Positions 29,192-46,660 of a stretch of DNA of 64,000 nucleotides are shown here, in pieces. Position 1 is the first letter of the stretch. Each line of letters opens with the position of its first letter. Origin of the DNA: a virus (Duplodnaviria > Heunggongvirae > Uroviricota > Caudoviricetes). The translations under genes and the position numbers were made by a program. The notes beneath the pieces were generated by a model. The model worked only from the letters and a program-made list of their open reading frames with translations. It did no database searches and was not told the origin of the DNA. The stretch lies in IMG/VR virus record IMGVR_UViG_3300031555_004162, positions 14,478 through 78,477 of that record. The stretch is one strand, 5' to 3'.

Positions 29192-29240
29192 AATTGCATC
29201 TCCTTTAATGAATTATTTATAATAGTTATTTACAGTTATA

Positions 29241-29269
29241 ATTATAACATAAATTTTTATAAATGTAAA
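29241..29269 (-). promoter_or_regulatory. sigma-A-like promoter (TTTACA-N17-TGTTATAAT) driving 28892..29191 and downstream genes
   Basis: On the minus strand, TTTACA at 29264-29269 and TATAAT at 29241-29246 with a 17-nt spacer; a second TGTTATAAT box lies about 60 nt upstream. Confidence 0.45.
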
Positions 29270-29350
29270 TAGATTTTTTATAATTAAATAAAAAATTGTT
29301 ATAATTATATAAAAATACAAATTATATTTATATAATTATAACAATAATAT

Positions 29351-29581
29351 TTAAATATGTTCTATAGAAGAATTATCTTTAAAAAAATCAACCAATATAT
29401 TTCTTACATATAAATCTTTTTTGTAATATGAATCATATCCTTTTTCTTTAGCCTTTTTATTTTTATGTACATAATATTCATTCCATACTTTATCTAACGC
29501 TTCTTTTTTAGAATTTGCTTTTACTATATATTTATCATTATCACCACAAGGAACTATACATTCTACCAAATAAATACTCAC
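29351..29581 (-). CDS. hypothetical protein
   Basis: 76-aa ORF. Confidence 0.4.
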   Translation of the reverse strand: MSIYLVECIVPCGDNDKYIVKANSKKEALDKVWNEYYVHKNKKAKEKGYDSYYKKDLYVRNILVDFFKDNSSIEHI

Positions 29582-29587
29582 TCATAT

Positions 29588-29815
29588 TCACTCCTAACTA
29601 ATCTATAAAATAAACAGTTTTACCTTTTTCATATGCTAATGCTATATTTTTAACTAGTGTTTCAGCTTCTTTAGATGAATTAAATGAACCTATAATGGCT
29701 CTATTTGAATTATAGTCACTAAATGCTCTAACATCTACATGATTTTCATTTTCCTCAATTGTAATAGAAAATTATCATAATTTATGTCTTTTCCATATTT
29801 TAAACTTATTACTCT
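29588..29815 (-). pseudogene. frameshifted small gene (about 77 codons across two frames)
   Basis: ATG at 29815 with AGGAGA 7 nt upstream and a TAATG overlap with the upstream stop. After 27 codons a stop appears inside an A-rich run (gaaaatgaaaatcatg), and the reading continues for about 50 codons in another frame to a stop near 29588. Confidence 0.3.
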
Positions 29816-29817
29816 CA

Positions 29818-30306
29818 TTATAAATCTCCTTTATCACTTATGTAATTGTCCCATATCATTTGTAGATAATCATAATAATCATATTGCATTGCCCATTCTA
29901 CATCAGATTCTTTATTCCATGAAAATGCTTTTTTATTTGCAAATAACGCAAGAAATTTATTAAAATACTCTTTTTGACTTAAATTACCATTTATAGGTTC
30001 TCCATTAGGAAATAACGTTTTACATACAGGAACTATAGTTGCAAAATATGTATGAATATCTTTTATATCCATTTCTCTCTGAAACATTAACATCCAAGCA
30101 GCTTGATTTAAGTCTTGAATATTCTTACTTGTAATCTTAATAATATTAGATACTATATCATTAATATAAAGTGATAAATTTTGAGCATTTTCAAGTGAAT
30201 TAGCAGAATATTTACTGATCATCGTTTTCATTATAAATTCTGCATTTTTATCATTAAGTAAATCATTAATTTTTTGTTCATTTTCATCAGATATATATTT
30301 ATTCAT
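29818..30306 (-). CDS. hypothetical protein
   Basis: 162-aa ORF. Confidence 0.5.
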   Translation of the reverse strand: MNKYISDENEQKINDLLNDKNAEFIMKTMISKYSANSLENAQNLSLYINDIVSNIIKITSKNIQDLNQAAWMLMFQREMDIKDIHTYFATIVPVCKTLFPNGEPINGNLSQKEYFNKFLALFANKKAFSWNKESDVEWAMQYDYYDYLQMIWDNYISDKGDL

Positions 30307-30307
30307 A

Positions 30308-30619
30308 TTAATATCCTCCTAATAAATCTCTTGTTACTTTTCCAGTTAATAAGTCACAAACTGTATTCATATTATGAGTTTTACTTACTAATTCTTTTAT
30401 ATCTTCAGAAGATAAATTAGTTAACTTATTTAATTCTTCTATAGCTTTATTAGCATGTTCCAATTTAGTTTTAAGTATTTCATTTTCTTTAATAAGTGAA
30501 TATTTTTCATCCAACAATTCATCTCTACTTTTTGTTAATGTTTTGATAGTTTTATTTTTAGAATCTATAATTCCTTGAAAATGTTTTTCAGCGGCTGAAA
30601 ATTTCTTTCCTTTTGACAT
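30308..30619 (-). CDS. hypothetical coiled-coil protein
   Basis: 103-aa ORF. Confidence 0.45.
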   Translation of the reverse strand: MSKGKKFSAAEKHFQGIIDSKNKTIKTLTKSRDELLDEKYSLIKENEILKTKLEHANKAIEELNKLTNLSSEDIKELVSKTHNMNTVCDLLTGKVTRDLLGGY

Positions 30620-30624
30620 TTTAC

Positions 30625-30882
30625 TTACACCTCTTCCAACACTAAACGTTTAAAATTATTATTTAAAAAACTAACAACTACATTATCCTCGTGAAAATCT
30701 GTATATATTTCATCTCTTGTCACGTGTTCAAGTATTGCGTCGGTAACTATAATACGTCCATACTCTTCTTTTGTTATAAACCTTTTTATTCTAAAAAGTC
30801 TTAGATAACTAAATCTATTTTCAGGATTTATCCCAATTATAATATCATCACGTTTAAAATTACAATTATAAAATTCATTCAT
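30625..30882 (-). CDS. hypothetical protein
   Basis: 85-aa ORF. Confidence 0.4.
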   Translation of the reverse strand: MNEFYNCNFKRDDIIIGINPENRFSYLRLFRIKRFITKEEYGRIIVTDAILEHVTRDEIYTDFHEDNVVVSFLNNNFKRLVLEEV

Positions 30883-30893
30883 TTAAATTCACC

Positions 30894-31268
30894 TCAAAAT
30901 TGATATTCAGATGCACACTTGTTACAAACCTTTACTACTTCATTTTCTGAATCTACCGGTTCACCGCAACATTCACATATATTTCCATTAAATCTTTTAG
31001 ATGGTCTTGTAATAGTTTTCTGTGAAAAAGTTGCTACTGGTTCTTCAATAGGAACTTCATGATAATCAATTCCTAATATTGTTTCTTCTTCATTTAGCTC
31101 TAATTCTCTATCAATAGGAGCTAAACGAAGTGAATATTTTAACTGATTTTTAGGGTGTCCATTAGTATGTGTAGCAATAGACGTAATATTAGCATCTCCG
31201 TGCATATACAAATAATTTCCAATAATTTGATGTAATTCTGATAATTTTACTACTCTTTTAGTTTTCAT
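30894..31268 (-). CDS. hypothetical protein with C-terminal zinc ribbon
   Basis: CECCGEP...CNKCASEY. Confidence 0.45.
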   Translation of the reverse strand: MKTKRVVKLSELHQIIGNYLYMHGDANITSIATHTNGHPKNQLKYSLRLAPIDRELELNEEETILGIDYHEVPIEEPVATFSQKTITRPSKRFNGNICECCGEPVDSENEVVKVCNKCASEYQF

Positions 31269-31282
31269 TGTATCATCTCCTT

Positions 31283-31456
31283 TTAATCAATATTGTCAAG
31301 TGCATCGATTAATCTTTCATACGACAATGATCTTTCAACTCCAAAAACTTCTACGTCATCATCACTTCTTTTTCCACTACTTAATTTTTCAATTGATTCA
31401 TTTAGCATCGATATTATATTTTTTGCATCTTCTATTGATAGTGTTATATTTTTCAT
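31283..31456 (-). CDS. small ORF (57 aa)
   Basis: ATG preceded by AAAGGAGAT, immediately downstream of the promoter module. Confidence 0.35.
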   Translation of the reverse strand: MKNITLSIEDAKNIISMLNESIEKLSSGKRSDDDVEVFGVERSLSYERLIDALDNID

Positions 31457-31491
31457 ATTTAGTATCTCCTTTACAACTATAATCTATTACA

Positions 31492-31520
31492 ATTATAACA
31501 CATTCTTTTATAATTGTAAA
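31492..31520 (-). promoter_or_regulatory. sigma-A-like promoter module, copy 1
   Basis: On the minus strand, TTTACA at 31515-31520, a 17-nt spacer, and TGTTATAAT with the hexamer at 31492-31497. Flanked by TTACAATTATAA / TTATAATTGTAA repeats from 31487 to 31548. Confidence 0.5.
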
Positions 31521-31601
31521 CCGTTTTTTTATAATTGTAATTAAACTGTAATATTATTTATCTATTAGCTTTTCAATATTTTTATTATTTGACATAATTA
31601 C

Positions 31602-32855
31602 TCACTCCGATGACTTAAAATTATATACAGGCTTAATAAGCTTTATAATCTCTACTGTATCTTCAATATTATTTACAATATCATTAATATTCTTATATGC
31701 TTGAGGAGATTCATCGAGAGTACCTTCATTAATACATGTAGAATAAATACCTGTCATAGATTCTGCAAAATCAGAAAGACTAATAGTTTCTTTAGCTTTA
31801 CCTCTACTCATTAATCTACCAGCACCATGAGGAGCTGAATTATTGTAATCCTCGTTTCCTTTACCTTTACAAATAAGAACTCCATCTCTCATATTAATAG
31901 GAATAACTAACATTTGTCCTTCATAAGCAGCGACCGCACCTTTTCTAATTATGTTATCATCTCCAATATAATTATGAATCGTATCAAACCATTCGGTCTT
32001 AATATTATATTTCCCTTTTTGTTTAATTCTTAACTTTCCACTAGTAGATAATTGAACTTGACAATCATTGAAATAATTCTTTATAAGTTCTTCAGCGATT
32101 GTAAATCTATTCAGTGCAGCGTATTTCTGACAAATTCTCATATCATGTAAATATTTATCTTTATCTTCACCAATAAGATAAAGTAAATTTTTAGGAATCT
32201 TATCTAACTTTGACTTATAATTATTTATGGCTTCTTGAATATCAGATTCCCTTCCAGATGCTTTCATTTCTGCTATTAAGGAATTTATATTATTCTTATC
32301 TTCTTCCTTTCCAGCTTTATTTTGATAATACTTACATACGTCTAATCCTAAATGTCTAGAACCAGTATGAATCATAAGATATTTGTTTCCTTCAAAATCT
32401 TCATCAATTTCACAAAAATGATTCCCCGAACCAAGCGAGCCGATAGCTCTTAATACTTTATCATATTGATGTTTTACCACATCTTTATAACAATACATAT
32501 TTTCAAGTTCGTCAAATTTCTTTTTCTGTTTTGAATTAACTTCAAATCCGAAAGCAACATTTTCACGAAGTATTTTATCAAATCTCTTATAATCTATATC
32601 AACATTTCCTAATGGAATTGTTAGTACACCACAACCAATATCGACTCCAACTAAATTAGGAACTACTTTATCTCCTAAATTAGCTGTAAATCCTATAACA
32701 CATCCTGCTCCAGCGTGACAATCAGGTTGAATTCTTATTTTACAACCTTCAACAAAAGGCTGATTTAATAATTGTATTATCTGACATATACACTCATCTT
32801 CTATAACATCTGTAAATACTTTAGCAGTACCATATTTTCCTTTAAGTTCTAACAT
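31602..32855 (-). CDS. rtcB: RNA-splicing ligase RtcB
   Basis: Motifs GVDIGCGV, CHAGAGC, GSGNHFCEIDED and APHGAGR. Start trimmed to MLELKGKYGTAKVF behind GGAGGAATAAA. Confidence 0.8.
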   Translation of the reverse strand: MLELKGKYGTAKVFTDVIEDECICQIIQLLNQPFVEGCKIRIQPDCHAGAGCVIGFTANLGDKVVPNLVGVDIGCGVLTIPLGNVDIDYKRFDKILRENVAFGFEVNSKQKKKFDELENMYCYKDVVKHQYDKVLRAIGSLGSGNHFCEIDEDFEGNKYLMIHTGSRHLGLDVCKYYQNKAGKEEDKNNINSLIAEMKASGRESDIQEAINNYKSKLDKIPKNLLYLIGEDKDKYLHDMRICQKYAALNRFTIAEELIKNYFNDCQVQLSTSGKLRIKQKGKYNIKTEWFDTIHNYIGDDNIIRKGAVAAYEGQMLVIPINMRDGVLICKGKGNEDYNNSAPHGAGRLMSRGKAKETISLSDFAESMTGIYSTCINEGTLDESPQAYKNINDIVNNIEDTVEIIKLIKPVYNFKSSE

Positions 32856-32856
32856 T

Positions 32857-33099
32857 TTATTCCTCCACTTTTGTAGGTTTATAAAGAGTAGCATCTTCAA
32901 GTTCTTCTAAATCGTAAATAATGCTATTAAGTTTATCTATTACAAGTTCATTAACTTTAAATCCATTTTTATCAATAATACGTTTATCATAACTTATATG
33001 ATGAATAGCTTCATCTATTCGGCTATATGCTTCTTTTATTAACCCTTTATATTTTTTATTTTCATTTTCATCTCTTGGAGTTATTTCATAAGCTTTCAT
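32857..33099 (-). CDS. hypothetical protein
   Basis: Start trimmed to MKAYEITP, which has GAGAGGA upstream. Confidence 0.4.
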   Translation of the reverse strand: MKAYEITPRDENENKKYKGLIKEAYSRIDEAIHHISYDKRIIDKNGFKVNELVIDKLNSIIYDLEELEDATLYKPTKVEE

Positions 33100-33158
33100 A
33101 ATGTTAATCCTCTCTATAATAAATTCTATAATTTTTAAATATAACTCTATTAATAAGT

Positions 33159-33860
33159 TTAGTCCCAATATGCGTTAATATTTTCATAATCAGGATAATT
33201 TTCTTTCATATAAGCGTCTAACTTTACTCTTAAAGCATCTTTTATCTTATTATCACTGTCATAATCACCTACAGGTGGTATACACTCTGTACTAAAAATA
33301 ACTATTTCACCATCTTTTACAATTCCTTGATAATCTGAATTTTTCCACACTTCATAATCAGAACTTTCATCTGCAACACGAGTCACAATAGTTTGATATC
33401 TTGTATTAAAGTTGATAAATGCATCTCTATCATAAAATGCAGCTTTATAAAAGAAATCTGCTCTCTTTTTTCCCTTATTGTCAAATAAATTATTCCACAT
33501 TGAATGGTCCGTTGCTTCAATTTTCCAACCTTCAGGAAGTACTACATTATAAAATAAATCGTCGCACTCATCAACAATAACAATTCCCATTTTCTCATAT
33601 TGTTGTCTTGTGTATTTAATGTTATTTTGCATAATAATCTTGTGTCTTTCTTCCCATTCCATTGAATCCTCTACACCGTTCCATCTTACCTCATTTGGCA
33701 GACAAACGTCATTTAACTTCTTTGGTAGTCTTTGATTTCTTACAACTGATTGTTGACCTCTTCTTTCCTGATTTTCAATAGCTTTAGAAGGATTTTCACC
33801 TTCCATTGCATATAGTATTGCATCCATAAAAGTAATCATATTATCATTATTCATTTTCAT
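33159..33860 (-). CDS. hypothetical protein
   Basis: 233-aa ORF. Confidence 0.5.
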   Translation of the reverse strand: MKMNNDNMITFMDAILYAMEGENPSKAIENQERRGQQSVVRNQRLPKKLNDVCLPNEVRWNGVEDSMEWEERHKIIMQNNIKYTRQQYEKMGIVIVDECDDLFYNVVLPEGWKIEATDHSMWNNLFDNKGKKRADFFYKAAFYDRDAFINFNTRYQTIVTRVADESSDYEVWKNSDYQGIVKDGEIVIFSTECIPPVGDYDSDNKIKDALRVKLDAYMKENYPDYENINAYWD

Positions 33861-33866
33861 TCTCCT

Positions 33867-34457: not shown

Positions 34458-34460
34458 GAT

Positions 34461-34742: not shown

Positions 34743-35018
34743 TTAATAAAATTCTTTTTCAAGACGAATATTATTTTCTTTTACTAATAAACTGAGTTTT
34801 TCTTTTTCACAAACCAATTTATTATATTTATCTTCAAACATCTTATATTTTTCACAAGTTTTATCGTACGAATTAAAACATTTTATTGCATCGCCTGCCC
34901 ATTCAATATCTTCATTAATCTTTTTAATCTGATTTAAAAGTCTCTCTTGACTTCTAATTAATTTTTCAAATTCTTCAAATGAACCATTCTTCCATTTTAA
35001 CATTTGTTCTAAAGTCAT
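34743..35018 (-). CDS. hypothetical coiled-coil protein
   Basis: Start trimmed to MTLEQMLKW, which has AAGGAGG 9 nt upstream. The ORF-track N-terminal extension runs through the promoter and terminator. Confidence 0.45.
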   Translation of the reverse strand: MTLEQMLKWKNGSFEEFEKLIRSQERLLNQIKKINEDIEWAGDAIKCFNSYDKTCEKYKMFEDKYNKLVCEKEKLSLLVKENNIRLEKEFY

Positions 35019-35049
35019 TTTATTAACCTCCTTTATATTTTCTAATATA

Positions 35050-35078
35050 ATTATAACATAAAAATTTATAATTGTAAA
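35050..35078 (-). promoter_or_regulatory. sigma-A-like promoter module, copy 2
   Basis: On the minus strand, TTTACA at 35073-35078, a 17-nt spacer, and TGTTATAAT with the hexamer at 35050-35055. The upstream element TTACAGTTTTATTACAATTATAAGAAAAGGG is conserved. Confidence 0.5.
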
Positions 35079-35112
35079 CCCTTTTCTTATAATTGTAATA
35101 AAACTGTAAAAA

Positions 35113-35143
35113 TAAAAGGAGTCTCTTATGAGACTCCTTTTTA
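35113..35143 (-). terminator. rho-independent terminator
   Basis: Perfect hairpin aaaggagtctc-ttat-gagactccttt flanked by A and T runs; sits immediately upstream of promoter copy 2 on the minus strand. Confidence 0.5.
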
Positions 35144-35467: not shown

Positions 35468-35989
35468 TCATAATTGAGGTAACATTTCCAATAATTCTTC
35501 AATCTTATTTTTAGTATTATCAGATAATATCATTTTATCTTTATTATTATCATACCAATGCTTTGCAGTACTTTTAGGATTATTATATTTAAATGATGAC
35601 CAATCACATAACATTTCTATAATACAATTTAAAGGCATATCTAATATTTTTTGTTCACCTGAATCTTTTTGTAAAATCCAATATTGCCAATGATGATCAT
35701 TACATTTTTGATGATGGTTCCAAGCTTCATCATATAATGCTTCATTATCGGCACCTGCTTTAGATGGATAAAAATGATGCAAATATGGATAAAATTCTAC
35801 ATCATCATACTTAGATGCATCATGATTATTTATTTTATGTTCTAATTCATGCTCATTAAAATCAAACATTGTTAAAAGATCATCTTTTATAGATTCATAA
35901 GATTTCTTAACGCCATCTATATGATTTTCTAAATATTTATAATATTCTTCAGATCTATCAGATACTCTTTCAGTTAATATTTTCAACAT
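35468..35989 (-). CDS. His/Trp-motif protein, paralog A (WNHH...HHWQYW...MP...CDW)
   Basis: Shares the HHWxYWI...G...L.MP...I.EM.CDW block with 39007..39549. Confidence 0.5.
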   Translation of the reverse strand: MLKILTERVSDRSEEYYKYLENHIDGVKKSYESIKDDLLTMFDFNEHELEHKINNHDASKYDDVEFYPYLHHFYPSKAGADNEALYDEAWNHHQKCNDHHWQYWILQKDSGEQKILDMPLNCIIEMLCDWSSFKYNNPKSTAKHWYDNNKDKMILSDNTKNKIEELLEMLPQL

Positions 35990-36050: not shown

Positions 36051-36326
36051 TTATTCATTTATAAGTTTTCTTACAGTAGGTGAAAATCTAAATTTAGGAT
36101 TTTTCTTAGCAGGACTTACTTTTTCTTCACCTGTTTTTGGGTTTCTTACTACTCTTTCAGGTTGATCTATTGCTTCAAATTTTCCAAAACTATAAATTTC
36201 TACCTTTTCACCATTCTTTAAATTTTCATTTACTAATTGTACAAATGTATCAATAACCCCTGTAACAGTGTTAATTGATTCTCCTGTAGATATTGCAATC
36301 TTTTCGATTAATTCTTGTTTTTTCAT
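36051..36326 (-). CDS. hup: HU/IHF-family DNA-binding protein
   Basis: Start trimmed to MKKQELIEK behind AAAGGAGAA. GEKVEIYSFGKFEA...RNPKTGEEK...F matches the HU arm and signature. Confidence 0.75.
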   Translation of the reverse strand: MKKQELIEKIAISTGESINTVTGVIDTFVQLVNENLKNGEKVEIYSFGKFEAIDQPERVVRNPKTGEEKVSPAKKNPKFRFSPTVRKLINE

Positions 36327-36352
36327 AATATTTCTCCTTTTATTTAATAATA

Positions 36353-36655
36353 TCACTGCTTATTATATTCATCTAATGCTTTATAAATAGCAGTTTCAAA
36401 CTTAACACGTGTATCAGCTGTAATAGGATGATATATATCAAAAAATCCAGAAACCGGATTATTTTTTTCATCCAATGCAGTGATTTTTTGTGATGGAAAT
36501 GCAATAAACTTTTTCTTATTTCCATTTTCTATTTTTTCAATAACCCTAATATTATGCAAAACCATTTCATTGTCTATTAATACTGAAACTAATGCTTTAA
36601 CAGGTTTAGTAGGATCATTATAAACTTTTTTTACTTGAACGCTTGTAATTATCAT
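36353..36655 (-). CDS. spoVG: SpoVG-like protein
   Basis: KALVSVLIDNEMVLHNIRVIE...FIAFPSQK....DIYHPITADTR aligns along its length with the SpoVG consensus (KA.ASIT.D..FV.HD.RVI....FVAMPS.......DIAHPI). Confidence 0.8.
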   Translation of the reverse strand: MIITSVQVKKVYNDPTKPVKALVSVLIDNEMVLHNIRVIEKIENGNKKKFIAFPSQKITALDEKNNPVSGFFDIYHPITADTRVKFETAIYKALDEYNKQ

Positions 36656-39006: not shown

Positions 39007-39549
39007 TCATTTTTCATATGTTTTTTCATATTTTTTAATAATATCTTTTAACTTAAATCTACCAGAGCTATAATCATGTAATACATTAAATAAAAATGTA
39101 TAAGTATCTAAATGTATTTTTATTTTACCACTATTGTATAATCTATTAAAAGTTTTAAAAGGAATATCACAGGTCCAATTATCTTTATTATATGCTTTTC
39201 CAGCTCCTATCCAATCACATATCATTTCTTTAACATATTTAATTGGCATTTTTAATGCTTCTCCACCTGAAGAAAGATTATCAATCCAATATTCCCAATG
39301 ATGTGGATTTCTTCCTCTATGATGTAACCATGCGTATGAATATCCTTTTTCATCTTTTTCATTATCAATTGGACTTCTATCACCTGTATAATATTTAGCA
39401 GAATTAAAAAATTCAGAAAAACTAAATTTAGACCAATCATGCATAAATCCTCTAAAAGGAATTCCAGCTTCAACAGATGCTAAAAACACATAATATTTAT
39501 GTCTGTTTATTATAGCAAAATGTTTTAATAATTTTTTATAATATTTCAT
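39007..39549 (-). CDS. His/Trp-motif protein, paralog B (LHH...HHWEYW...MP...CDW)
   Basis: Shares the conserved block with 35468..35989. Confidence 0.5.
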   Translation of the reverse strand: MKYYKKLLKHFAIINRHKYYVFLASVEAGIPFRGFMHDWSKFSFSEFFNSAKYYTGDRSPIDNEKDEKGYSYAWLHHRGRNPHHWEYWIDNLSSGGEALKMPIKYVKEMICDWIGAGKAYNKDNWTCDIPFKTFNRLYNSGKIKIHLDTYTFLFNVLHDYSSGRFKLKDIIKKYEKTYEK

Positions 39550-40162: not shown

Positions 40163-40423
40163 TTATTTGGAGTTTTTTAGTATTAAATATTTGTGTTTAG
40201 TTGCCATGCCACCACGAATATGTTTATCTTTAAAATTTGATGCAACTAATTTTCTAACTTTTTGATATAATCTTTTATCAATGTATGGTAATTTATAAAG
40301 AAAATCGTATGACAATGTAGATTTACCAATTCCAAACACTTTAGCAGTTTTTCGTATTGTAGATTTATTATCTACGTAATAAATTGCACAAGCTTTTATT
40401 CTATTCTCAAGTTGTTCGTTCAT
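40163..40423 (-). CDS. SpoIIID-like HTH transcriptional regulator
   Basis: Start trimmed to MNEQLEN (GGAG RBS). RIKACAIYYVDNKSTIRKTAKVFGIGKSTLSYDF...LP.I...L...V......KHIRGGMATKHKY parallels B. subtilis SpoIIID (ERTIKIGKYIVETKKTVRVIAKEFGVSKSTVHKDL...RHLRGGEATKLKY). Confidence 0.7.
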   Translation of the reverse strand: MNEQLENRIKACAIYYVDNKSTIRKTAKVFGIGKSTLSYDFLYKLPYIDKRLYQKVRKLVASNFKDKHIRGGMATKHKYLILKNSK

Positions 40424-40472
40424 ATAAATCAACTCCTTTAATTATATTTTATTAAAGGAATCAATAAATATA

Positions 40473-41513: not shown

Positions 41514-41588
41514 GTATTTGTAACTCCTTTATAAGATAATTTTAAATAAAATCTTTATAATATTTATAATCATTTATTTTAAAATTGT

Positions 41589-42212
41589 TTATTTAAACCT
41601 CTTATCTTTTTGTTTACGCGATTTTAATATATATTTTTTATAATCATTATAATCTTTAAATTTGATATATTCACCAGAATAAACATCAAAACATGAATTA
41701 TCTGCACATAATTCATATGAATTTGTTGAACACACAATGAACACATCTTTATCCTTATTATGTTCATCTTCCATAATTGTTTTAAATAAATATTCTTTTA
41801 TTTCAATAGCATTATCTATGCTTAAACCTGAATCTATAGCATCAAATAAAATCCATAATTCTTTACTATTTTTATGTTGCTGTACAAACCTTGCAATTTT
41901 GCCTGCTATAATACCAAGATTAATATATATTTGTTCACCTTCAGATGATTGCATCAGTGTAGCTGCAGTAGTTATATCATCCTCATAAACTCTTTCAGAT
42001 ATTGATGTTGCTCCACCTTCATATTCATTACTATAATATATTACTGGGATTTTAGATGATTGCAAAGACTCTTTAATTGATTGTAATAAAGTAGTTTTTC
42101 CAGATCCATTGCATCCTATTAAAATAGTAACACCTGGATTTATTTCGATTTCTGATTTTTTATAAATGATATCATCGTATGGTTTTCTTGTAATTTTAAA
42201 AAATCTACTCAT
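41589..42212 (-). CDS. P-loop ATPase (ABC/AAA_21-like)
   Basis: Walker A GCNGSGKTTLLQSI; Walker B-like ILFDAIDSGL. Confidence 0.55.
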   Translation of the reverse strand: MSRFFKITRKPYDDIIYKKSEIEINPGVTILIGCNGSGKTTLLQSIKESLQSSKIPVIYYSNEYEGGATSISERVYEDDITTAATLMQSSEGEQIYINLGIIAGKIARFVQQHKNSKELWILFDAIDSGLSIDNAIEIKEYLFKTIMEDEHNKDKDVFIVCSTNSYELCADNSCFDVYSGEYIKFKDYNDYKKYILKSRKQKDKRFK

Positions 42213-42224
42213 TTTATGGACTCC

Positions 42225-42551
42225 TTATTCAATTCTTATAGCTCTATCATCCCAATATTCATTAGCAAAAATTTTAGGACTATTCATTGGAACTTCTGGA
42301 TTTTCATTATAATATTTAGGAATAATAGTTATAGGCATATTCATTATGCACCATTCTTTAGCAGCATTTAATGTTTCACCACTTCTACAAGTCCATAAAA
42401 TAATTACTAATTCTTGTCCTCGTTTATTTACTTCAACATTTTTATCTAACAAATGTTTAATAGTATTTTCTTTTATATTTCCTATTGCAGGATAGTTATG
42501 TTCTACTAATGTTCCATCAAAATCAAGAGCTATATAATATTTATCATACAT
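42225..42551 (-). CDS. small HAD-like hydrolase
   Basis: N-terminal ALDFDGTL motif I; 108 aa. Confidence 0.45.
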   Translation of the reverse strand: MYDKYYIALDFDGTLVEHNYPAIGNIKENTIKHLLDKNVEVNKRGQELVIILWTCRSGETLNAAKEWCIMNMPITIIPKYYNENPEVPMNSPKIFANEYWDDRAIRIE

Positions 42552-43158
42552 TTTTTACAATCTCTCCTATCATTTCAATCCACCTATTATAGGTTTTTAA
42601 ATATTCTTCATTAGATATTTCAGTGTATAAATCTATTTCTCTTTTACGTTGTCCAGAGTTATCCATTAAATTACAAAACCAACCTATGCTTTCAGTATGA
42701 AGTGAAAAAATTTCTTCATACATGTTTTTACTCTTAAATGATTTTATAGGAAGATTAAAAACCAAAGTATTCATTTTATATGGATTATTTTCTTCAACAT
42801 TTAAAATCTTATAATATGCAATAGTTTCTTCATTTATAAGTCTTTTAAATGTTTTTCCAATATATTCTATATTATTAGCTATATCTTTTTTAGTTTGTTC
42901 ACAATAATATTTATTAATTTGTTCATTTAATTCATCTCTCTGTTTTTCTAAAATTTTAATATCTACTTCATCTTCATCTATCAAATTAATATCTTCTATA
43001 AGTTTTGTATTTCCATTTTCTAAAATAATTAGTTCCGATTTTGATACCCATTTAATCCAGCGATTACATTTTTGACAGTATAATCCAGTGTGAAAATCAC
43101 CATAACTTAAACGTCCAAGTGTGGGTCCACACTTTTTACATATAGTTTCAATATTCAT
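42544..43158 (-). CDS. hypothetical protein with N-terminal zinc ribbon
   Basis: CKKCG...CQKCNRW. Confidence 0.45.
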   Translation of the reverse strand: MNIETICKKCGPTLGRLSYGDFHTGLYCQKCNRWIKWVSKSELIILENGNTKLIEDINLIDEDEVDIKILEKQRDELNEQINKYYCEQTKKDIANNIEYIGKTFKRLINEETIAYYKILNVEENNPYKMNTLVFNLPIKSFKSKNMYEEIFSLHTESIGWFCNLMDNSGQRKREIDLYTEISNEEYLKTYNRWIEMIGEIVKNV

Positions 43159-43172
43159 AATTACTCATTCCT

Positions 43173-43493
43173 TTAATACTTTATTTCATCAGGTGTTAAT
43201 TTAACAGCTTTTTCTTTTAATTTTTTCACATATCGTATTCCTTTATCGTTTACTTTTATTTTAAGTAAACTATCATCTTCTGAAAGTTTCCGCATTTGTT
43301 CAGTAATTGGAATTCTATAAGCCATATATAAATTTTTATAAAATACACTTTCCGAACATTCATCTGCTTTATCACCAGTATAATTTTCAAAAGATTCTGC
43401 AGTGCAATCGAATGTTTCTACTTCATAATCACCTGAAGGAATACCGATTAATACTTTAGTATTTCTTTTAAATAAAATATCAATAATCTTCAT
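43173..43493 (-). CDS. hypothetical protein
   Basis: 106-aa ORF. Confidence 0.45.
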   Translation of the reverse strand: MKIIDILFKRNTKVLIGIPSGDYEVETFDCTAESFENYTGDKADECSESVFYKNLYMAYRIPITEQMRKLSEDDSLLKIKVNDKGIRYVKKLKEKAVKLTPDEIKY

Positions 43494-43509
43494 AATATAT
43501 ATTCCTCAT

Positions 43510-44511
43510 TTACTTATTGAATTTAATAGCATTTTCATTAAATAAAGTATTATCACATTCCACAAAATAGTCAAATAGTGGTAACGCTAACTCTCTCATT
43601 TGAGGATGAGCAGCTTTGTCACATCTTAATTCAAAGAAATGTCCCCATTCATAATTATGAGCAGTCATTATAATTTCAGTTTTTAAACTGTTACCAAGTA
43701 CACTTCTAGCTTCTTGAGGAGTAGCTCCTAATTCTAATAACTCAAAGTATGCTTTTTCTGAAGCTTTTATTGCATCTCTCCAAACATGATACTTGTTTCT
43801 TTCAACACTTTGAAGTTCTGCTTCACCATCAAACATTAATGGGTCAATCACCGTGATATTATTATCAAATTTATCTTTAGAATAATTACAATATCTTGTA
43901 GATTCTTGAGCATATGAAGAATCCCTATGTCTAACGATTTCATGTGATACACCTCTATCACAAATAAATTTAATAGATTTCCATCCGTGCATCCATTGTT
44001 CTTCTGGAATTAATGTATTAATATCATCGATTTTAGTCCAATTATTTCTATGTACTTTTTTAAATTTATTACCAAATAATTCATCACAATCATAATCTAA
44101 GACTATTTGCTCACATAATTCAATTAAATGTTCTTTCATATAACTATTAGTCTTATAAGCTTCTAATAAATCTAAAAGAGACCTTGCGCTAAACGACAAT
44201 ATATATCTTAATTTTGTTTCAAAATTACCTTCATCATTACATGAAATAATTTCTGTCGTACTAGATGTTATATATTTTTCATTACTTAATATTTTAAAAA
44301 ATAAATTATTAGGAGTATTACATTGATATACAAATATAAAATGTTCTAACATCGCCCAATGTTTTTTATCATATAAATTTTTAATCATTTTTTTATGACT
44401 TTCATCAGTTATTAAATCTTCTGATTTATAACAAATTCTTGCAATTTTTTCAATATGTTTTTGAGGATTGTCATCATACATTTCTTTAAATGACGGCTTT
44501 ATAATTTTCAT
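43510..44511 (-). CDS. thyX: flavin-dependent thymidylate synthase ThyX
   Basis: ThyX signature RHR-x7-S present as RHRDSSYAQES; longer than typical ThyX (333 aa). Confidence 0.75.
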   Translation of the reverse strand: MKIIKPSFKEMYDDNPQKHIEKIARICYKSEDLITDESHKKMIKNLYDKKHWAMLEHFIFVYQCNTPNNLFFKILSNEKYITSSTTEIISCNDEGNFETKLRYILSFSARSLLDLLEAYKTNSYMKEHLIELCEQIVLDYDCDELFGNKFKKVHRNNWTKIDDINTLIPEEQWMHGWKSIKFICDRGVSHEIVRHRDSSYAQESTRYCNYSKDKFDNNITVIDPLMFDGEAELQSVERNKYHVWRDAIKASEKAYFELLELGATPQEARSVLGNSLKTEIIMTAHNYEWGHFFELRCDKAAHPQMRELALPLFDYFVECDNTLFNENAIKFNK

Positions 44512-44525
44512 AATTTATCTCTCCT

Positions 44526-45230
44526 TTATATTAATTCTGTTATATTTCCATTATCTAAATTTACATGTATCTTACATTCATTTATTAACTCGTTATGAAC
44601 AACTTGTAATTGTGAAGTATTTAGTAAAATACTTTTATAAATACTTAATACATTATCTACAAAAATCACAATATCTACTTTATTCCAAACTTTCTTATGT
44701 GACATTAACATATAATTCATAAAAGTTGTTAAAGTTATACATAATAAATATGGAAAATTATCTGTTGTTGATTTTATAATTACATCATCCATATTATTTG
44801 TTCTAACCTCATTAGAATTTAATTGAGGTAAATCTTTACATTTATCTAATATAGATACTCCATAATCACGATTAAAATCATCCAGTAACATATTTAAGTC
44901 TCTGTTACTATTTCCAATAGTGATAATAAATCTTTTTAATTTTTCTGCAAACTCTATTATTTGATGTGTATTTAAATTAAATTTTTTATTAATAACTTTT
45001 ATACTACATAATAATGCTATTACTGAACATTTAGTTAAAATTTTATTATCTATACTTTTTCTTATTCTATATACTTCTAACATTTTCTTAGATGATTTTG
45101 TTAATTCATTATATCCAGAATCTCTAGCATACTTATTTATATCATCCCAAGTTTTATTTATTTTTTGTTTTTTAATTTCTTCTTTTATTTGCTTTCTTTT
45201 TTTCTTTAATTGCAATGCAGTTTTATCCAT
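44526..45230 (-). CDS. hypothetical protein
   Basis: 234-aa ORF, basic N-terminus. Confidence 0.45.
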   Translation of the reverse strand: MDKTALQLKKKRKQIKEEIKKQKINKTWDDINKYARDSGYNELTKSSKKMLEVYRIRKSIDNKILTKCSVIALLCSIKVINKKFNLNTHQIIEFAEKLKRFIITIGNSNRDLNMLLDDFNRDYGVSILDKCKDLPQLNSNEVRTNNMDDVIIKSTTDNFPYLLCITLTTFMNYMLMSHKKVWNKVDIVIFVDNVLSIYKSILLNTSQLQVVHNELINECKIHVNLDNGNITELI

Positions 45231-45293
45231 TTCTTTTTATCCTTTTTATTTCTTTTCTTATATAATATAATAGACTAAATTATAAAAAATTAT

Positions 45294-45662
45294 TTAATGA
45301 TAACCATATTCACTATCTATTTTTAAATCAGAAGATATACATTCATTATCATATAATTTATTTAAAGAGTTTATTTGTTCCTTAGTTATTTTTTTAGGAT
45401 TAATATATGTGTTATACCAAACTGAAATACATCCTGTCATATTGACGAGTTCTAACATTACATCACACCAAATATCTAAAATATCAAATAATACTTCTCT
45501 TTCATAACATGTAAGATTAATTAATTTTTCTTGATGACTTGGAATTGCATATGATATATCTCCATCAGGATGAATTAATACTTCACAATAGTTTATATAA
45601 TTTTCATTGTGATACTTTATAAATTCATCTATTTTCATTTTATCAGTTCTCATAATAATCAT
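45294..45662 (-). CDS. hypothetical protein
   Basis: 122-aa ORF. Confidence 0.45.
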   Translation of the reverse strand: MIIMRTDKMKIDEFIKYHNENYINYCEVLIHPDGDISYAIPSHQEKLINLTCYEREVLFDILDIWCDVMLELVNMTGCISVWYNTYINPKKITKEQINSLNKLYDNECISSDLKIDSEYGYH

Positions 45663-46327
45663 CCTTCTTTTATAGCGGTTGTTCCAAATCTCTTACCTTC
45701 TGTATAACCATTTAATTCTGCATGTACACTAGTTGATTTATTTTTTATTACTCTTTCTTTTTGTGCAAAATCTTTAGTAAAATTAGAAAAATTAGTTTGT
45801 ACTTCTTTATCAACCTGAACCATTAATGCATATTTTTCTTGTTTGTTTTGTTCTTCATATTTTGCTTGAATGCCTGCAACAAATCCATTAAACCAAGAAT
45901 ATTTAATTCCTTTAGCGGTCCCAAATATATCTCTATATTCTCTTGCATATTTTTCTGCTTTTTCTTCTGCAATTTCATATGCACAGTTTATAATTTCTGT
46001 AACACATTCAACATCTGTTTTAAAACCAAATAATGTAACTCTATGAATTTTGCCATGAGTTGTAATATATTTAAGTACTCCGAAATTTTTAGTAAATACA
46101 TCTATTAACATGTATATCCAAGGAATAGTTGCATTGTAATTATTTAATTCCATTTTGACGATTTCTTTATCATCTTCTTTTAAAATATCTTTTTCTTCAA
46201 GTTTATGTTTTAACATTAATTTTCTCGCAGTTGTTAAAGCACTTAATGCTTCAGCTTCAGTACAACCATTTTCAACAGTTTTATTCAATAAATGTTTTAT
46301 TTTGTTTAATATAGAATTATCACACAT
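45659..46327 (-). CDS. hypothetical protein
   Basis: 222-aa ORF. Confidence 0.45.
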   Translation of the reverse strand: MCDNSILNKIKHLLNKTVENGCTEAEALSALTTARKLMLKHKLEEKDILKEDDKEIVKMELNNYNATIPWIYMLIDVFTKNFGVLKYITTHGKIHRVTLFGFKTDVECVTEIINCAYEIAEEKAEKYAREYRDIFGTAKGIKYSWFNGFVAGIQAKYEEQNKQEKYALMVQVDKEVQTNFSNFTKDFAQKERVIKNKSTSVHAELNGYTEGKRFGTTAIKEG

Positions 46328-46366
46328 ACTTTTTTCTCCTTATAATTATTTTGCAGGCCAATTAAC

Positions 46367-46519
46367 TATCATATAATGAAGCCAATTCCAATCACTATAA
46401 TGAGGATCGATACTTCCACTTTTTACTGACATTTCCAAAAAACATAAGATAAATGATATCAAAAATATCATTGATACAATATAGAGCATGTTTTCTAAAA
46501 ATTTAAATAATTTCTTCAT
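46367..46519 (-). CDS. small membrane protein (50 aa)
   Basis: ATG with AAAGGAGAA upstream; hydrophobic core; first gene after promoter copy 3. Confidence 0.35.
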
Positions 46520-46568
46520 AGTTATTTCTCCTTTTAAATAATTTTAGCTTTTGTTTTATTATGTTTTA

Positions 46569-46597
46569 ATTATAACATATTTTCTTACATTTGTAAA
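46569..46597 (-). promoter_or_regulatory. sigma-A-like promoter module, copy 3
   Basis: On the minus strand, TTTACA at 46592-46597, a 17-nt spacer, and TGTTATAAT with the hexamer at 46569-46574; same conserved upstream element as copies 1 and 2. Confidence 0.5.
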
Positions 46598-46626
46598 CCC
46601 TTTTCTTATAATTGTAATAAAACTGT

Positions 46627-46660
46627 AAAAAAGGATTAGACGTTTAATCTAATCCTTTTA
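46627..46660 (-). terminator. rho-independent terminator
   Basis: ggattaga-cgtttaa-tctaatcc hairpin flanked by A and T runs, directly upstream (minus sense) of promoter copy 3. Confidence 0.5.

What the first reader, a model, noticed from the sequence alone, without database searches (positions are those of the whole stretch)
29236..46632. Conserved promoter module (TTTACA-N17-TGTTATAAT with a shared ~35-nt upstream element) repeated at least three times, each copy just after a terminator
The three full copies are at 31457-31556, 35019-35112 and 46560-46632. Read on the minus strand, each shows TTTACA, an exactly 17-nt spacer, and an extended -10 box TGTTATAAT. Upstream of each lies a near-identical element TTACAGTTT(T/A)ATTACAATTATAA(G/A)AAAA(G/C)GG. 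That element contains two direct copies of TTACAATTATAA spaced about two helical turns apart, the second overlapping the -35 box. Copy 1 also carries the reverse-complement half-site, forming an inverted repeat. Copies 2 and 3 sit immediately downstream of perfect rho-independent terminators and 40-70 nt upstream of a gene start with an AGGAGG site. A fourth promoter (29241-29269) shares the TTTACA-N17-TGTTATAAT core without the upstream element. This looks like a phage promoter class with a dedicated UP element or regulator-binding site, possibly recognised by a phage-encoded factor such as the SpoIIID-like or HU protein in this window.
Basis: seen in the sequence. Interest (0 to 1): 0.6.

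Follow-up and report, generated by a model that had tools for sequence, protein, structure and literature searches.

The report
Repeated terminator–promoter cassettes of jumbo phage
A large, very AT-rich uncultivated phage, probably of a Clostridium-like host, starts its DNA-metabolism operons from at least six copies of one conserved ~80-nt cassette, a terminator followed by a very strong host-type promoter with a conserved upstream block, which is the same kind of element as the early promoters and PeSL cassettes of T4-type phages.

Summary
One correction: the 17-nt spacer runs from TTTACA to TATAAT, so the core is TTTACA-N14-TGTTATAAT.

A profile search finds six robust modules in the window, all on the gene strand: 50423, 46597, 35078, 31520, 29269 and 3031. 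A degenerate seventh lies at 63587. Five of the seven follow a verified hairpin and T-run.

Relatives (49–87% marker-protein identity, 200–226-kb contigs) carry the same module at the same gene junctions. Alignment of 21 modules from 8 genomes shows conservation beyond sigma-A contacts. A core AATTRTA(A) recurs at -51, -30 and -9, exactly 21 bp apart. It is embedded in a near-palindrome TTAYAATTRTAA and followed by an A-tract at -45 to -39. Some lineages carry an extra 21-bp unit. Copies within one genome are homogenised.

Best reading: composite terminator plus strong host sigma-A promoter cassettes for pre-replicative genes, analogous to T4 early promoters and PeSLs. The phased repeats could also be operators for a phage protein. 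HU, SpoIIID-like and SpoVG-like genes are present and conserved, but nothing links them to the sites. This is a new member of a known kind, of moderate interest.

The parts
46629..46659 (-). Terminator hairpin (13-bp stem) with a T-run, ending the upstream operon (865-aa gene ... HD-domain gene). First part of cassette 46597.
   Evidence: -14.1 kcal/mol, z = -6.7, 0/200 shuffles fold as well. Sequence.
46560..46628 (-). TTACAG 46623-46628; -55 site TTACAATTATAA 46606-46617; A-tract and GGG 46598-46605; -35 TTTACA 46592-46597; -34 site TTACAAATGTAA 46585-46596; TGTTATAAT 46569-46577; -13 site 46564-46575. Predicted start near 46562. The served gene's ATG is at 46519.
   Evidence: nhmmer E = 1e-10. 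Positional orthologs L002:13988, L008:4392, L005:12674.
35114..35141 (-). Terminator hairpin (12-bp stem, A-run 5' and T-run 3', so potentially bidirectional) upstream of module 35078.
   Evidence: terminator scan.: -18.1 kcal/mol, z = -5.5.
35040..35109 (-). Upstream element 35079-35109; -55 site 35087-35098; -35 TTTACA 35073-35078; -34 site 35066-35077; TGTTATAAT 35050-35058; -13 site TTATAATTATAT. RBS AAGGAGG. ATG at 35018 (91-aa ORF 34743-35018).
   Evidence: E = 1.2e-10. Positional ortholog L012:7456, after DUF5662.
31483..31551 (-). Three 12/12 sites exactly 21 bp apart: 31529-31540, 31508-31519 (overlaps the -35 at 31515-31520) and 31487-31498 (inverted orientation, overlaps the -10). 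TGTTATAAT 31492-31500. ATG at 31456.
   Evidence: no hairpin; E = 5e-11. Positional orthologs L011:11288 and L012:11593-11650.
29233..29310 (-). Promoter module 29269. -35 TTTACA 29264-29269; TGTTATAAT 29241-29249; phased sites at -13 (12/12), -34 (11/12), -55 (29278-29289, 10/12) and -76 (29299-29310, 11/12). ATG at 29191. An all-A/T 17-bp inverted repeat with a T-run lies upstream at 29286-29343.
   Evidence: 4-site array; E = 8e-9. Positional orthologs L012:13133 and L011:7034.
50385..50509 (-). Cassette 50423. Terminator with a 14-bp perfect stem at 50469-50506 plus T-run; degenerate -55 site AAATAATTATAA 50432-50443; -35 TTTACA 50418-50423; TGATATAAT 50395-50403. It serves a small 'MLTC' ORF (start about 50362) and the 865-aa gene.
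   Evidence: hairpin sequence; E = 5e-5. Positional orthologs L002:9738, L004:9694, L005:9094, L008:17.
2994..3114 (-). Cassette 3031. Terminator hairpin 3082-3114; -55 site ATACAATTGATA; -35 TTTACA 3026-3031; 17-nt spacer; TATAAT 3003-3008 with no TG. The gene start follows AAAGGAGG at about 2972.
   Evidence: -13.4 kcal/mol, z = -4.7; E = 2e-6.
63550..63624 (-). Degenerate cassette 63587. Strong terminator hairpin 63598-63624, then TTTTTTGTATAA, two phased sites (ATAGAATTATAA, GTATAATTATAA) and TATAAT, but a poor -35 (ATAGAA). It precedes the 433-aa gene 62188-63489.
   Evidence: -13.6 kcal/mol, z = -7.0. Not recovered by the profile at E < 1, so membership is doubtful.
40163..40432 (-). SpoIIID-like HTH protein (89 aa). 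A candidate trans-acting factor only; no link to the modules is shown.
   Evidence: PF12116, E = 7e-23. (aligns with B. subtilis SpoIIID 2L0K over the HTH and the C-terminal basic region). Conserved in L002, L005, L010, L012.
36051..36356 (-). HU/IHF-family DNA-binding protein (101 aa). A candidate architectural or regulatory factor only; no link to the modules is shown. A SpoVG-like gene lies next to it at 36353-36655.
   Evidence: PF00216, E = 2.5e-24; PF04026, E = 2.8e-18.. Conserved in L005, L010, L012.

Best explanation
The repeats are composite terminator–promoter cassettes that punctuate the pre-replicative (nucleotide-metabolism, recombination, RNA-repair) gene region of an uncultivated jumbo phage, probably of a clostridial host. 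All genes in this region are co-oriented.

Each cassette ends the upstream transcript with a hairpin and T-run. Within about 70 nt it restarts transcription from a very strong promoter read by the host's primary-sigma (sigma-A/sigma-70) RNA polymerase. That promoter has -35 TTTACA, a 17-bp spacer, TGn and a perfect TATAAT, placed 25-45 nt before a Shine-Dalgarno site.

The conserved upstream block is (w)wAATTRTAA followed by an A-tract at -45 to -39. I infer that it acts as an UP-like docking or bending element for the alpha C-terminal domains. I also infer that the extra conserved bases next to the -35 (AATTRTA) and after the -10 (TTATA) tune polymerase binding or DNA wrapping, as proposed for the 'additional consensus regions' of T4 early promoters.

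Copies within one genome stay alike through shared selection plus recombination between copies.

Shown: the repeat, its statistics, its phasing, its genomic placement and its conservation in relatives. Inferred: which polymerase reads it, when it fires, and the role of the upstream block.
For: - Geometry and uniqueness. The core TTTACA-N14-TGTTATAAT has 4 exact matches against 0.1 expected. Generic sigma-70 matches are at chance in this 24% GC DNA (189 found, 183 expected), yet the modules are the only gene-strand hits scoring 11/12 with a TG.
- Strand. All profile hits with E < 1e-4 are on the gene strand.
- Placement. Each module sits in an intergenic gap 32-50 nt before an ATG preceded by AGGAG. 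Five of seven follow a verified terminator.
- Conservation. The same module sits at the same gene junctions in relatives with 49-87% identity in the 865-aa marker and 80-87% in RtcB.
- Class-wide constraint. Identity at positions sigma-A does not contact is 0.59 between genomes, 0.32 for random pairs, 0.605 for positional orthologs and 0.725 for paralogs.
- Upstream block. An A-tract is conserved at -45 to -39, where a proximal UP subsite would lie, with AATT at -51 to -48.
- No alternative polymerase. No sigma factor or phage RNA polymerase was found among about 115 window ORFs scanned.
- Precedent. T4 early promoters are 'uber UP/-35/TGn/-10' promoters with additional consensus regions (PMC2988021). 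PeSL cassettes combine a terminator stem-loop, an AT-rich upstream region and a strong sigma-70 promoter, repeated about 50 times per genome (PMC2839356).
- Wider occurrence. An unrelated AT-rich viral contig (L017) also uses TTTACAATTGTAA-type promoters. This suggests a host-polymerase preference rather than a clade-specific factor.
Against: - There are no transcript data. Promoter activity, the start site and the timing are all inferred.
- Sigma-A alone does not explain why T at -27 and T at -6 are as invariant as the -10 hexamer.
- It also does not explain why one core, AATTRTA(A), recurs at -51, -30 and -9 with exact 21-bp phasing, or why some lineages add a whole extra 21-bp unit.
- The distal half of the upstream block matches the E. 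coli UP consensus only weakly (my comparison from memory).
- The host and its polymerase are unknown. Only 64 kb of a genome of at least 115 kb was seen, so a phage-encoded sigma factor or polymerase elsewhere is not excluded.
Confidence: 0.6

Rival explanations
1. Operator array. The phased near-palindromes TTAYAATTRTAA at -13, -34, -55 (and -76) are binding sites for a phage-encoded protein. Candidates are the HU-family protein (by analogy with SPO1 TF1), the SpoIIID-like protein, or an unidentified factor. It would bind cooperatively along one face of the helix, cover the -35 and -10, and switch this promoter class off (or on) as a group during infection. The promoters themselves would still be read by host sigma-A polymerase.
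For: - Mean match to the 12-mer is 9.3, 10.7 and 11.1 of 12 at -55, -34 and -13. Background and off-phase controls score 4.8 (sd 1.7).
- Arrays of three or more sites at 21-bp spacing occur 5 times in the window and 0 times in 200 Markov shuffles.
- TTACAATTGTAA and TTATAATTATAA are perfect palindromes, and copy 1 has three 12/12 sites.
- Bases not needed by sigma-A are invariant (-27 T, -6 T).
- The number of units varies in whole 21-bp steps.
- Within-genome homogenisation could reflect co-evolution with a genome-encoded factor.
- HU, SpoIIID-like and SpoVG-like genes are conserved across the clade.
- SpoIIID is a known repressor and activator acting at short sites in promoters (PMC517825).
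Against: - At -55, the one site not constrained by sigma-A, only the right half (AATTRTAA) is conserved. The left half scores 4.2 of 6 and is variable. The palindrome may therefore largely be a by-product, because TTtACA and TtATAAT resemble each other.
- The 21-bp distance between the two proximal sites is forced by the 17-bp spacer.
- No isolated sites occur away from promoters.
- No cognate regulator was identified. One weak MarR hit could not be located.
- The repeat lacks the G-rich core I recall for SpoIIID boxes.
- A similar extended -35 occurs in an unrelated phage contig.
Confidence: 0.25
2. Recombination cassettes. The main reason the ~80-nt sequence is kept so uniform is that it serves as a portable homology patch. 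As with the PeSLs of T4-type phages, recombination would occur between copies (the phage encodes RecA/UvsX-like and SbcCD proteins). This would shuffle, insert or delete the small genes between them. The fine structure upstream of the -35 would then have little function of its own.
For: - The composite architecture of terminator, AT-rich block and strong promoter matches the published PeSL definition (PMC2839356, PMC4122927).
- Paralogs within a genome are more alike (0.725) than positional orthologs between genomes (0.605).
- Each lineage has its own homogenised variant, for example three near-identical modules in L010 and two in L002.
- The gene order around modules differs between relatives. 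The HD gene lies on opposite sides of a module in the window and in L005. A 75-aa gene lies on different sides of the module that follows RtcB in the window and in L012. The ORFs between DUF5662 and RtcB are hypervariable.
Against: - The first ORF after a module lacks a window homolog in 3 of 8 cases in close relatives, no more than the roughly 40% of ORFs without a homolog overall. The small sample shows no enrichment of novelty at modules.
- Homogenisation alone does not explain why the same positions are conserved between genomes that share only 49% marker-protein identity.
- The terminator stems are not conserved between copies, unlike the promoter half.
Confidence: 0.2
3. The modules are read by a phage-encoded sigma factor or phage RNA polymerase rather than by the host primary-sigma holoenzyme. 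The conserved extra bases would be that factor's specificity determinants.
For: - Conservation extends beyond the canonical hexamers.
- The -35 is always TTTACA or a near variant, never TTGACA.
- Jumbo phages often encode their own transcription machinery (general knowledge).
- One relative (L011) encodes a sigma-region-4 plus alpha-CTD fusion protein immediately upstream of one of its modules.
Against: - The 17-bp spacing, TGn and perfect TATAAT are the textbook primary-sigma signature.
- No sigma factor or RNA polymerase was found among about 115 ORFs of the window.
- The fusion protein has no homolog in the window or in the other loci. None of its 187 homologs lies on a contig the size of the clade's large contigs.
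Confidence: 0.07
4. The modules are not promoters. They would be replication iterons, packaging signals or a transcribed leader RNA element that merely looks like a promoter in AT-rich DNA.
For: - 21-bp direct repeats resemble iterons.
- Generic sigma-70-like matches are at chance in this genome.
- Weak mirror-image promoter-like matches occur on the empty strand.
Against: - There are six or seven dispersed copies. Each sits exactly between a terminator and an RBS, on the gene strand only, and is conserved at orthologous junctions.
- The invariant TTTACA-17-TATAAT with TG occurs 4 times against 0.1 expected.
- There is no Rfam match, and no RNA structure beyond the terminators.
Confidence: 0.03

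Closest known systems
Early promoters of phage T4 ('uber' UP/-35/TGn/-10 promoters; Hinton 2010, PMC2988021)
   Same: Both are a large set of near-identical, very strong host-sigma promoters in one phage genome, serving pre-replicative genes. Both combine excellent -35, TGn and -10 elements with an A/T-rich upstream (UP) region. Both show 'additional regions of consensus' beyond the known polymerase contacts. From memory, the T4 early -35 is also GTTTAC-like, with T rather than G at the third position.
   Different: The phage clade and host phylum are unrelated (a probable clostridial jumbo phage against a coliphage). The extra consensus here is organised as one core repeated at exact 21-bp phasing (-51, -30, -9), with a variable number of units. 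I am not aware of that for T4. No Alt-like ADP-ribosyltransferase was seen in the window.
PeSL (promoter-early stem-loop) cassettes of T4-type phages (Arbiol et al. 2010, PMC2839356; Comeau et al. 2014, PMC4122927)
   Same: Both are composite cassettes of up to about 100 nt: a terminator stem-loop, an AT-rich block and a strong sigma-70-like promoter, ending at the RBS of the next gene. Both are repeated many times among small genes of unknown function, with sequence conserved across copies. Here 5 of 7 window modules have the terminator. Copies are homogenised within genomes, and gene order differs around some modules.
   Different: The sequences are not homologous. The stem-loop here always lies upstream of the promoter and is not conserved between copies; PeSL stems are often GGGG/CCCC and can overlap the promoter. 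Module-mediated shuffling and mini-circles are not shown here, and the small breakpoint sample is not enriched.
UP elements and phased A-tracts upstream of strong Gram-positive promoters (rrn-type UP elements; SP82/SPO1 early promoters; C. perfringens plc – from memory)
   Same: The A-tract at -45 to -39 and the AT-rich block extending to about -60 sit where the alpha C-terminal domains bind. In L002-type modules A6 tracts recur every 21 bp, in phase with the helix.
   Different: The conserved block is a specific sequence (AATTRTAA), not just A/T richness. Its match to the E. coli distal UP consensus is weak. Dependence on alpha-CTD is untested.
TF1 of Bacillus phage SPO1 (HU-family protein with preferred sites at early promoters) and phi29 p6/p4 nucleoprotein control of early promoters (from memory)
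   Same: In both cases a phage encodes an HU-like architectural protein together with a family of strong early sigma-A promoters. Repeated binding at a regular helical phase over the promoters would give class-wide repression.
   Different: There is no evidence here that the HU homolog binds the modules. In a search of solved structures it is closest to ordinary HU/IHF. TF1 requires hmU-DNA, and the base composition of this phage's DNA is unknown.

Membership tests
Primary-sigma (sigma-70/sigma-A) promoter | -35 hexamer close to TTGACA and -10 hexamer TATAAT, separated by 17 +/- 1 bp | tested here: met
   TTTACA (5/6), 17 bp, TATAAT (6/6) in 6 window modules and in most of the 21 aligned modules. 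One relative copy has an 18-bp spacer.
Primary-sigma (sigma-70/sigma-A) promoter | Extended -10 TGn | tested here: met
   TGT or TGA precedes TATAAT in 5 of 7 window modules. It is absent in 3031, in 63587 and in the L010 lineage.
Primary-sigma (sigma-70/sigma-A) promoter | Correct position and orientation relative to a gene (upstream, same strand, short leader, RBS) | tested here: met
   All modules are on the gene strand and 32-50 nt before an ATG with AGGAG.
Primary-sigma (sigma-70/sigma-A) promoter | Transcripts start 6-9 nt downstream of the -10; initiation by host holoenzyme | not testable with these tools
   No transcriptome is available, and the host is unknown.
UP element | A/T-rich block between -40 and -60, with an A-tract at the proximal subsite (about -46 to -38) | tested here: met
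   The weighted consensus at -46 to -38 is tAAAAAAAc. AATT at -51 to -48 is conserved.
UP element | Match to the full UP consensus, including the distal subsite | tested here: inconclusive
   By-eye comparison with the E. coli consensus recalled from memory gives about 6 of 11 at the distal subsite. No Firmicute-specific model was available.
UP element | Stimulation depends on the alpha C-terminal domain | not testable with these tools
   Needs in vitro transcription with alpha-CTD-deleted polymerase.
PeSL-type mobile regulatory cassette | Composite of a terminator stem-loop and a strong sigma-70-like early promoter with an AT-rich upstream region, within about 100 nt | tested here: met
   Hairpin and T-run lie directly upstream of modules 46597, 35078, 50423, 3031 and 63587, but not of 31520. 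The same layout is seen in L002, L005, L008 and L004.
PeSL-type mobile regulatory cassette | Many dispersed copies with conserved sequence, preferentially among small variable genes | tested here: met
   6-7 copies in 64 kb and 2-3 per 20-kb locus in relatives, lying among many ORFs with no family match.
PeSL-type mobile regulatory cassette | Copies act as recombination points: breakpoints at cassettes, mini-circles | tested here: inconclusive
   Some rearrangements abut modules (the HD gene, the 75-aa gene, the DUF5662-RtcB interval). However, the first ORF after a module is novel in only 3 of 8 cases, against a background of about 40%. Mini-circles are not testable.
PeSL-type mobile regulatory cassette | Sequence homology to the T4-type PeSLs | tested here: not met
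   The phage clade differs. There is no near DNA match in the phage collection, and the module patterns are absent from or rare in IMG/VR. This is an analogue, not a homologue.
Operator array for a dimeric repressor | Two-fold symmetric sites with both half-sites conserved | tested here: inconclusive
   Sites at -34 and -13 score 10.7 and 11.1 of 12, but their left halves are the sigma-A elements. At -55 the right half scores 5.1 of 6 and the left half only 4.2 of 6.
Operator array for a dimeric repressor | Sites spaced by an integral number of helical turns and overlapping the core promoter | tested here: met
   The spacing is exactly 21 bp, and pairwise spacings peak at 21 and 42 bp. There are 5 arrays against 0 in 200 shuffles.
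Operator array for a dimeric repressor | An identified cognate DNA-binding protein | tested here: not met
   Only HU, SpoIIID-like and SpoVG-like proteins, plus one weak MarR hit that could not be located, were found. None is linked to the site.
SpoIIID box | Match to the SpoIIID binding consensus | tested here: inconclusive
   The phage protein keeps both DNA-binding regions. The published text retrieved gives an 8-bp motif without spelling it out. From memory it is GGACAAG-like. The repeat shares only ACA(A/G) and has no G's.

The most novel reading that the evidence does not exclude
The 21-bp-phased TTAYAATTRTAA units form a modular operator array, expandable in whole units. A clade-conserved phage protein would polymerise on it along one face of the DNA, from about -80 to +1. 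Candidates are the HU-family protein (TF1-like), the SpoIIID-like protein or the SpoVG-like protein. This would give class-wide temporal shut-off or activation of all early cassettes at once. That would be a phage take-over circuit built from domesticated sporulation or nucleoid proteins of Firmicutes, in an uncultivated jumbo-phage clade.
Probability: 0.22. Interest if true: 0.6.

Novelty: new member of a known kind. Interest (0 to 1): 0.38.

Why it matters
The result gives a clean, comparative definition of the main promoter class of an uncultivated clade of ~115 to 226-kb, 24% GC phages that has no cultured relative. It shows that the 'terminator + uber-promoter cassette' design known from T4-type coliphages has an independent counterpart in a probable Firmicute phage.

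Practical uses:
- The consensus can be used to annotate operons and likely early genes in these metagenomic genomes.
- The modules are candidate strong, compact, insulated promoters for AT-rich Gram-positive hosts.

The exact 21-bp phasing and the unit-number variation give a simple, testable handle for separating polymerase-intrinsic recognition from regulation by a phage factor: 5-bp phase shifts and unit deletions.

Tried and rejected
- Literal pattern TTTACA-N17-TGTTATAAT: 0 matches. The spacer had been miscounted in the title.
- Near-identity DNA search of 29-47 kb against 50,697 phage records: no match.
- Exact-pattern scans for the module in IMG/VR, JGI metagenomes and GTDB genomes: nothing.
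- Searches for loci related to the 865-aa family in IMG/VR and GTDB genomes: nothing. Relatives came only from the protein search plus contig look-up.
- Exact-protein look-up with the long RecA ORF failed.
- More distant relatives do not share the module. L007 and L009 (40% marker identity) have none. L013 has a different duplicated cassette. The class is therefore limited to this clade.
- The sigma-region-4 plus alpha-CTD fusion protein of L011 looked like an ideal reader of '-35-like repeat + A-tract' units. It has no homolog in the window or the other loci, and no homolog on the clade's large contigs. I rejected it as an explanation and kept it as a side note.
- One weak MarR-family hit among 74 ORFs could not be located by local phmmer or by a follow-up Pfam call. 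Dropped.
- Known RNA families: only two tRNAs.
- A second candidate promoter motif, CTATTATATTATATA: not enriched.
- PeSL-style enrichment of novel ORFs next to modules: not seen in the small sample.
- Literature look-ups for the relatives' assemblies, the C. perfringens plc A-tracts and the spelled-out SpoIIID and T4 consensus sequences did not return usable text. Those comparisons are marked as from memory.

Full report
**Observation**

The 31-nt upstream element TTACAGTTTWATTACAATTATAARAAAASGG matches three times and never in 100 shuffles.

The title's formula is off by three. TTTACA-N17-TGTTATAAT has no match. TTTACA-N14-TGTTATAAT, which is a 17-nt spacer up to TATAAT, has four exact matches (29241-29269, 31492-31520, 35050-35078, 46569-46597). 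A fifth, at 50395-50423, has TGATATAAT. Chance expectation is 0.10.

Generic sigma-70-like matches are at chance in this 24% GC DNA (189 found, 183 expected). The modules are nevertheless the only gene-strand hits scoring 11/12 with a TG.

Terminators directly upstream of copies 2 and 3 fold at -18.1 and -14.1 kcal/mol, with z = -5.5 and -6.7. Copy 1 has none.

**Context**

All substantial ORFs of the 64-kb window are on the minus strand. The region encodes:
- SbcCD, dCMP deaminase and dUTPase
- two tRNAs
- ThyX, RecA, and DUF2786 and HD-domain proteins
- a C5 methyltransferase, RtcB and DUF5662
- SpoIIID-like, SpoVG-like and HU proteins
- RNA-repair domains

No sigma factor or RNA polymerase was found among about 115 ORFs scanned.

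There is no close DNA match among 50,697 phage records. The nearest cultured RecA/UvsX homologs, at about 40% identity, are in Clostridium phages. RtcB is 100% identical to a protein on a 114,610-bp JGI contig, which is the source of the window. Relatives sit on contigs of 201-226 kb, with more distant ones up to 266 kb. This is therefore the pre-replicative region of an uncultivated jumbo-type phage, probably of a clostridial host.

**Census**

Scanning for arrays of the 12-mer TTAYAATTRTAA (at least 10 of 12 matches) spaced by 21 bp gives five arrays of three or more sites in the window. They are exactly the five core promoters. None appeared in 200 Markov shuffles, and the pairwise site spacings peak at 21 and 42 bp.

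Two weaker arrays led to a further full module at 3031 and a degenerate one at 63587, both after strong hairpins.

A profile HMM built from 19 of the modules recovers six window copies: 31520, 46597, 35078, 29269, 3031 and 50423. In the clade, every hit with E < 1e-4 is on the gene strand. Opposite-strand echoes at the same places are weak, with E of 0.01 or more.

Five of the seven cassettes begin with a verified hairpin and T-run.

**Comparative evidence**

The module is absent from IMG/VR, the JGI metagenome contigs and the GTDB genomes as an exact pattern. Contigs reached through homologs of the 865-aa protein and of RtcB do carry it.

Orthologous junctions hold orthologous modules:

| Window module | Junction | Orthologs |
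|---|---|---|
| 50423 | before the small 'MLTC' ORF and the 865-aa gene | L002:9738, L004:9694, L005:9094, L008:17 |
| 46597 | before DUF2786 | L002:13988, L008:4392, L005:12674 |
| 35078 | after DUF5662 | L012:7456 |
| 31520 | before the 124-aa gene | L011:11288, L012:11593 |
| 29269 | before the 99-aa gene | L012:13133, L011:7034 |

These assignments rest.

Relatives at 40% marker identity (L007, L009) lack the module. L013 (61% RtcB identity) has a different duplicated cassette.

At the 50 positions not contacted by sigma-A, identities are as follows:
- random pairs: 0.32
- modules from different genomes: 0.59
- positional orthologs: 0.605
- paralogs within one genome: 0.725

The similarity therefore reflects a class-wide constraint plus within-genome homogenisation, not descent alone.

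**Anatomy**

I aligned 21 modules from 8 genomes on the -35. The weighted consensus is ...tAatTgtaaaAaaa.ta-TTTACAAtT.tA.aa.ttTAtgtTATAATTAtA. T at -27 and T at -6 are as informative as the T's of the -10 hexamer.

Cutting the region into 21-bp units shows one shared core, AATTRTA(A), at -51 to -44, -30 to -23 and -9 to -2. Mean match to the 12-mer is 9.3, 10.7 and 11.1 of 12 at -55, -34 and -13, and 6.6 at -76. Background and off-phase controls score 4.8 with sd 1.7.

The two proximal sites contain the -35 (TTtACA) and the -10 (TtATAAT), so their 21-bp distance follows from the 17-bp spacer. The -55 and -76 sites are not forced in this way. At -55 only the right half and the following A-tract (-45 to -39) are well conserved.

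A gapped alignment shows the full cassette:
1. hairpin
2. T-run ending in TTTGT
3. an optional extra ~20-nt unit (in L002, L008 and L012)
4. the -55 unit
5. the -35 unit
6. the -10 unit

**Mechanism**

The most economical reading is a family of terminator–promoter cassettes. Each stops read-through and restarts transcription from a very strong promoter read by the host primary-sigma polymerase. I infer that the A-tract/AATT block works as an UP-like or bending element, and that the extra conserved bases tune polymerase binding.

This is what is described for T4 early promoters: 'uber' UP/-35/TGn/-10 promoters with additional consensus regions (PMC2988021). It also matches PeSL cassettes, which combine a terminator stem-loop, an AT-rich block and a strong sigma-70 promoter and are repeated about 50 times per genome (PMC2839356 and PMC4122927).

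An unrelated AT-rich viral contig (L017) also uses TTTACAATTGTAA-type promoters. This hints that the extended -35 suits the host polymerase.

What this reading does not explain well is the exact re-use of one core at three phased positions and the growth of the element in whole 21-bp units.

**Rivals**

- **Operator array.** A phage protein would bind the phased sites. The phasing, the invariant non-sigma positions and the conserved HU, SpoIIID-like and SpoVG-like genes are compatible with this. Against it, the -55 site is asymmetric, no cognate factor is identified and no isolated sites exist. I give it 0.25.
- **PeSL-like recombination** as the cause of uniformity. Homogenisation and some rearrangements next to modules fit. 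However, novelty of the first ORF after a module (3 of 8) is not above background. I give it 0.2. It is not exclusive of the main reading.
- **A phage sigma factor or polymerase.** 0.07.
- **Not a promoter.** 0.03. There is no Rfam match, and the strict gene-strand, pre-RBS placement argues against it.

The sigma-region-4 plus alpha-CTD fusion protein found in L011 was an attractive candidate reader. It is not encoded in the window or the other loci, nor on the clade's large contigs.

**Verdict**

The interpretation as a promoter class is supported. The nature of the upstream element (UP-like or regulator site) is unresolved. The proposed SpoIIID or HU link is untested.

It is a new member of a known kind, namely phage early 'uber'-promoter/PeSL-type cassettes, in a clade with no cultured representative. 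The phased repeat architecture is worth a simple experiment. Interest is moderate.

Noticed in passing
L011:6149-6799: A 216-aa protein fuses sigma-70 region 4 (PF04545) to an RNA polymerase alpha C-terminal domain (PF03118), the two domains that read the -35 and UP elements. It has 187 homologs (E <= 1e-10) in metagenomes, often with extra HTH domains. It sits just upstream of a promoter module in that relative. It is not present in the window.
   Followed up: partly
window 55035-55992: This is a 958-nt non-coding tRNA region. Only tRNA-Leu(TAA) at 55428-55516 and tRNA-Gln(TTG) at 55690-55763 are called. Near 55090-55260 there is a T-arm/acceptor-like 3' end (GAGTTCGAATCTCTTAATTCCGACCA) with a matching 5' acceptor strand far upstream. 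It may be an interrupted or intron-containing tRNA. The phage also encodes RtcB, HAD_SAK_2, cREC_REC and DUF488-N3a RNA-repair domains.
   Followed up: no
window 29270-29350: An all-A/T inverted repeat with a 17-bp stem (-19.4 kcal/mol, z = -5.8) is followed by a T-run. It is built from TGTTATAATTATAT and its complement, upstream of module 29269. A mirror promoter-like match lies on the empty + strand at 29277-29305.
   Followed up: partly
window 45259-45273 and 63503-63517 (also 18126-18140, 1 mismatch): The motif CTATTATATTATATA occurs exactly twice, each time about 20-30 nt before a gene start. It may be a second promoter class, but it is not enriched overall (9 found, 6.6 expected, at up to 2 mismatches).
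   Followed up: partly
L013:8420-9140: A more distant relative from a Hadza gut metagenome carries a different duplicated terminator-plus-promoter cassette (GAGATCAGAG-TTGAAA-N14-TGCTATAAT) before two tandem 150-aa genes. It also has two IS605/TnpB insertions and a preQ0/7-deazaguanine gene set (QueC, QueD, QueE, FolE, QueF-like).
   Followed up: no
window 43510-44511; L010:1-436: The ThyX homolog is long (333 aa, with the Thy1 domain only in the C-terminal part). In relative L010 the ThyX gene carries an intein and an HNH endonuclease. Together with dCMP deaminase, dUTPase, a C5 methyltransferase and a glucosyltransferase-like protein, this hints at modified DNA bases.
   Followed up: no
window 39007-39549 and 35468-35989: Two paralogous DUF5662 genes lie in the same operon region. 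Both are conserved in the relatives L010 and L012. Their function is unknown.
   Followed up: no
window 31602-32900: The mechanically listed RtcB ORF (432 aa, TTG start) is probably 417 aa. All database homologs, including the 100%-identical one, are 417 aa.
   Followed up: partly
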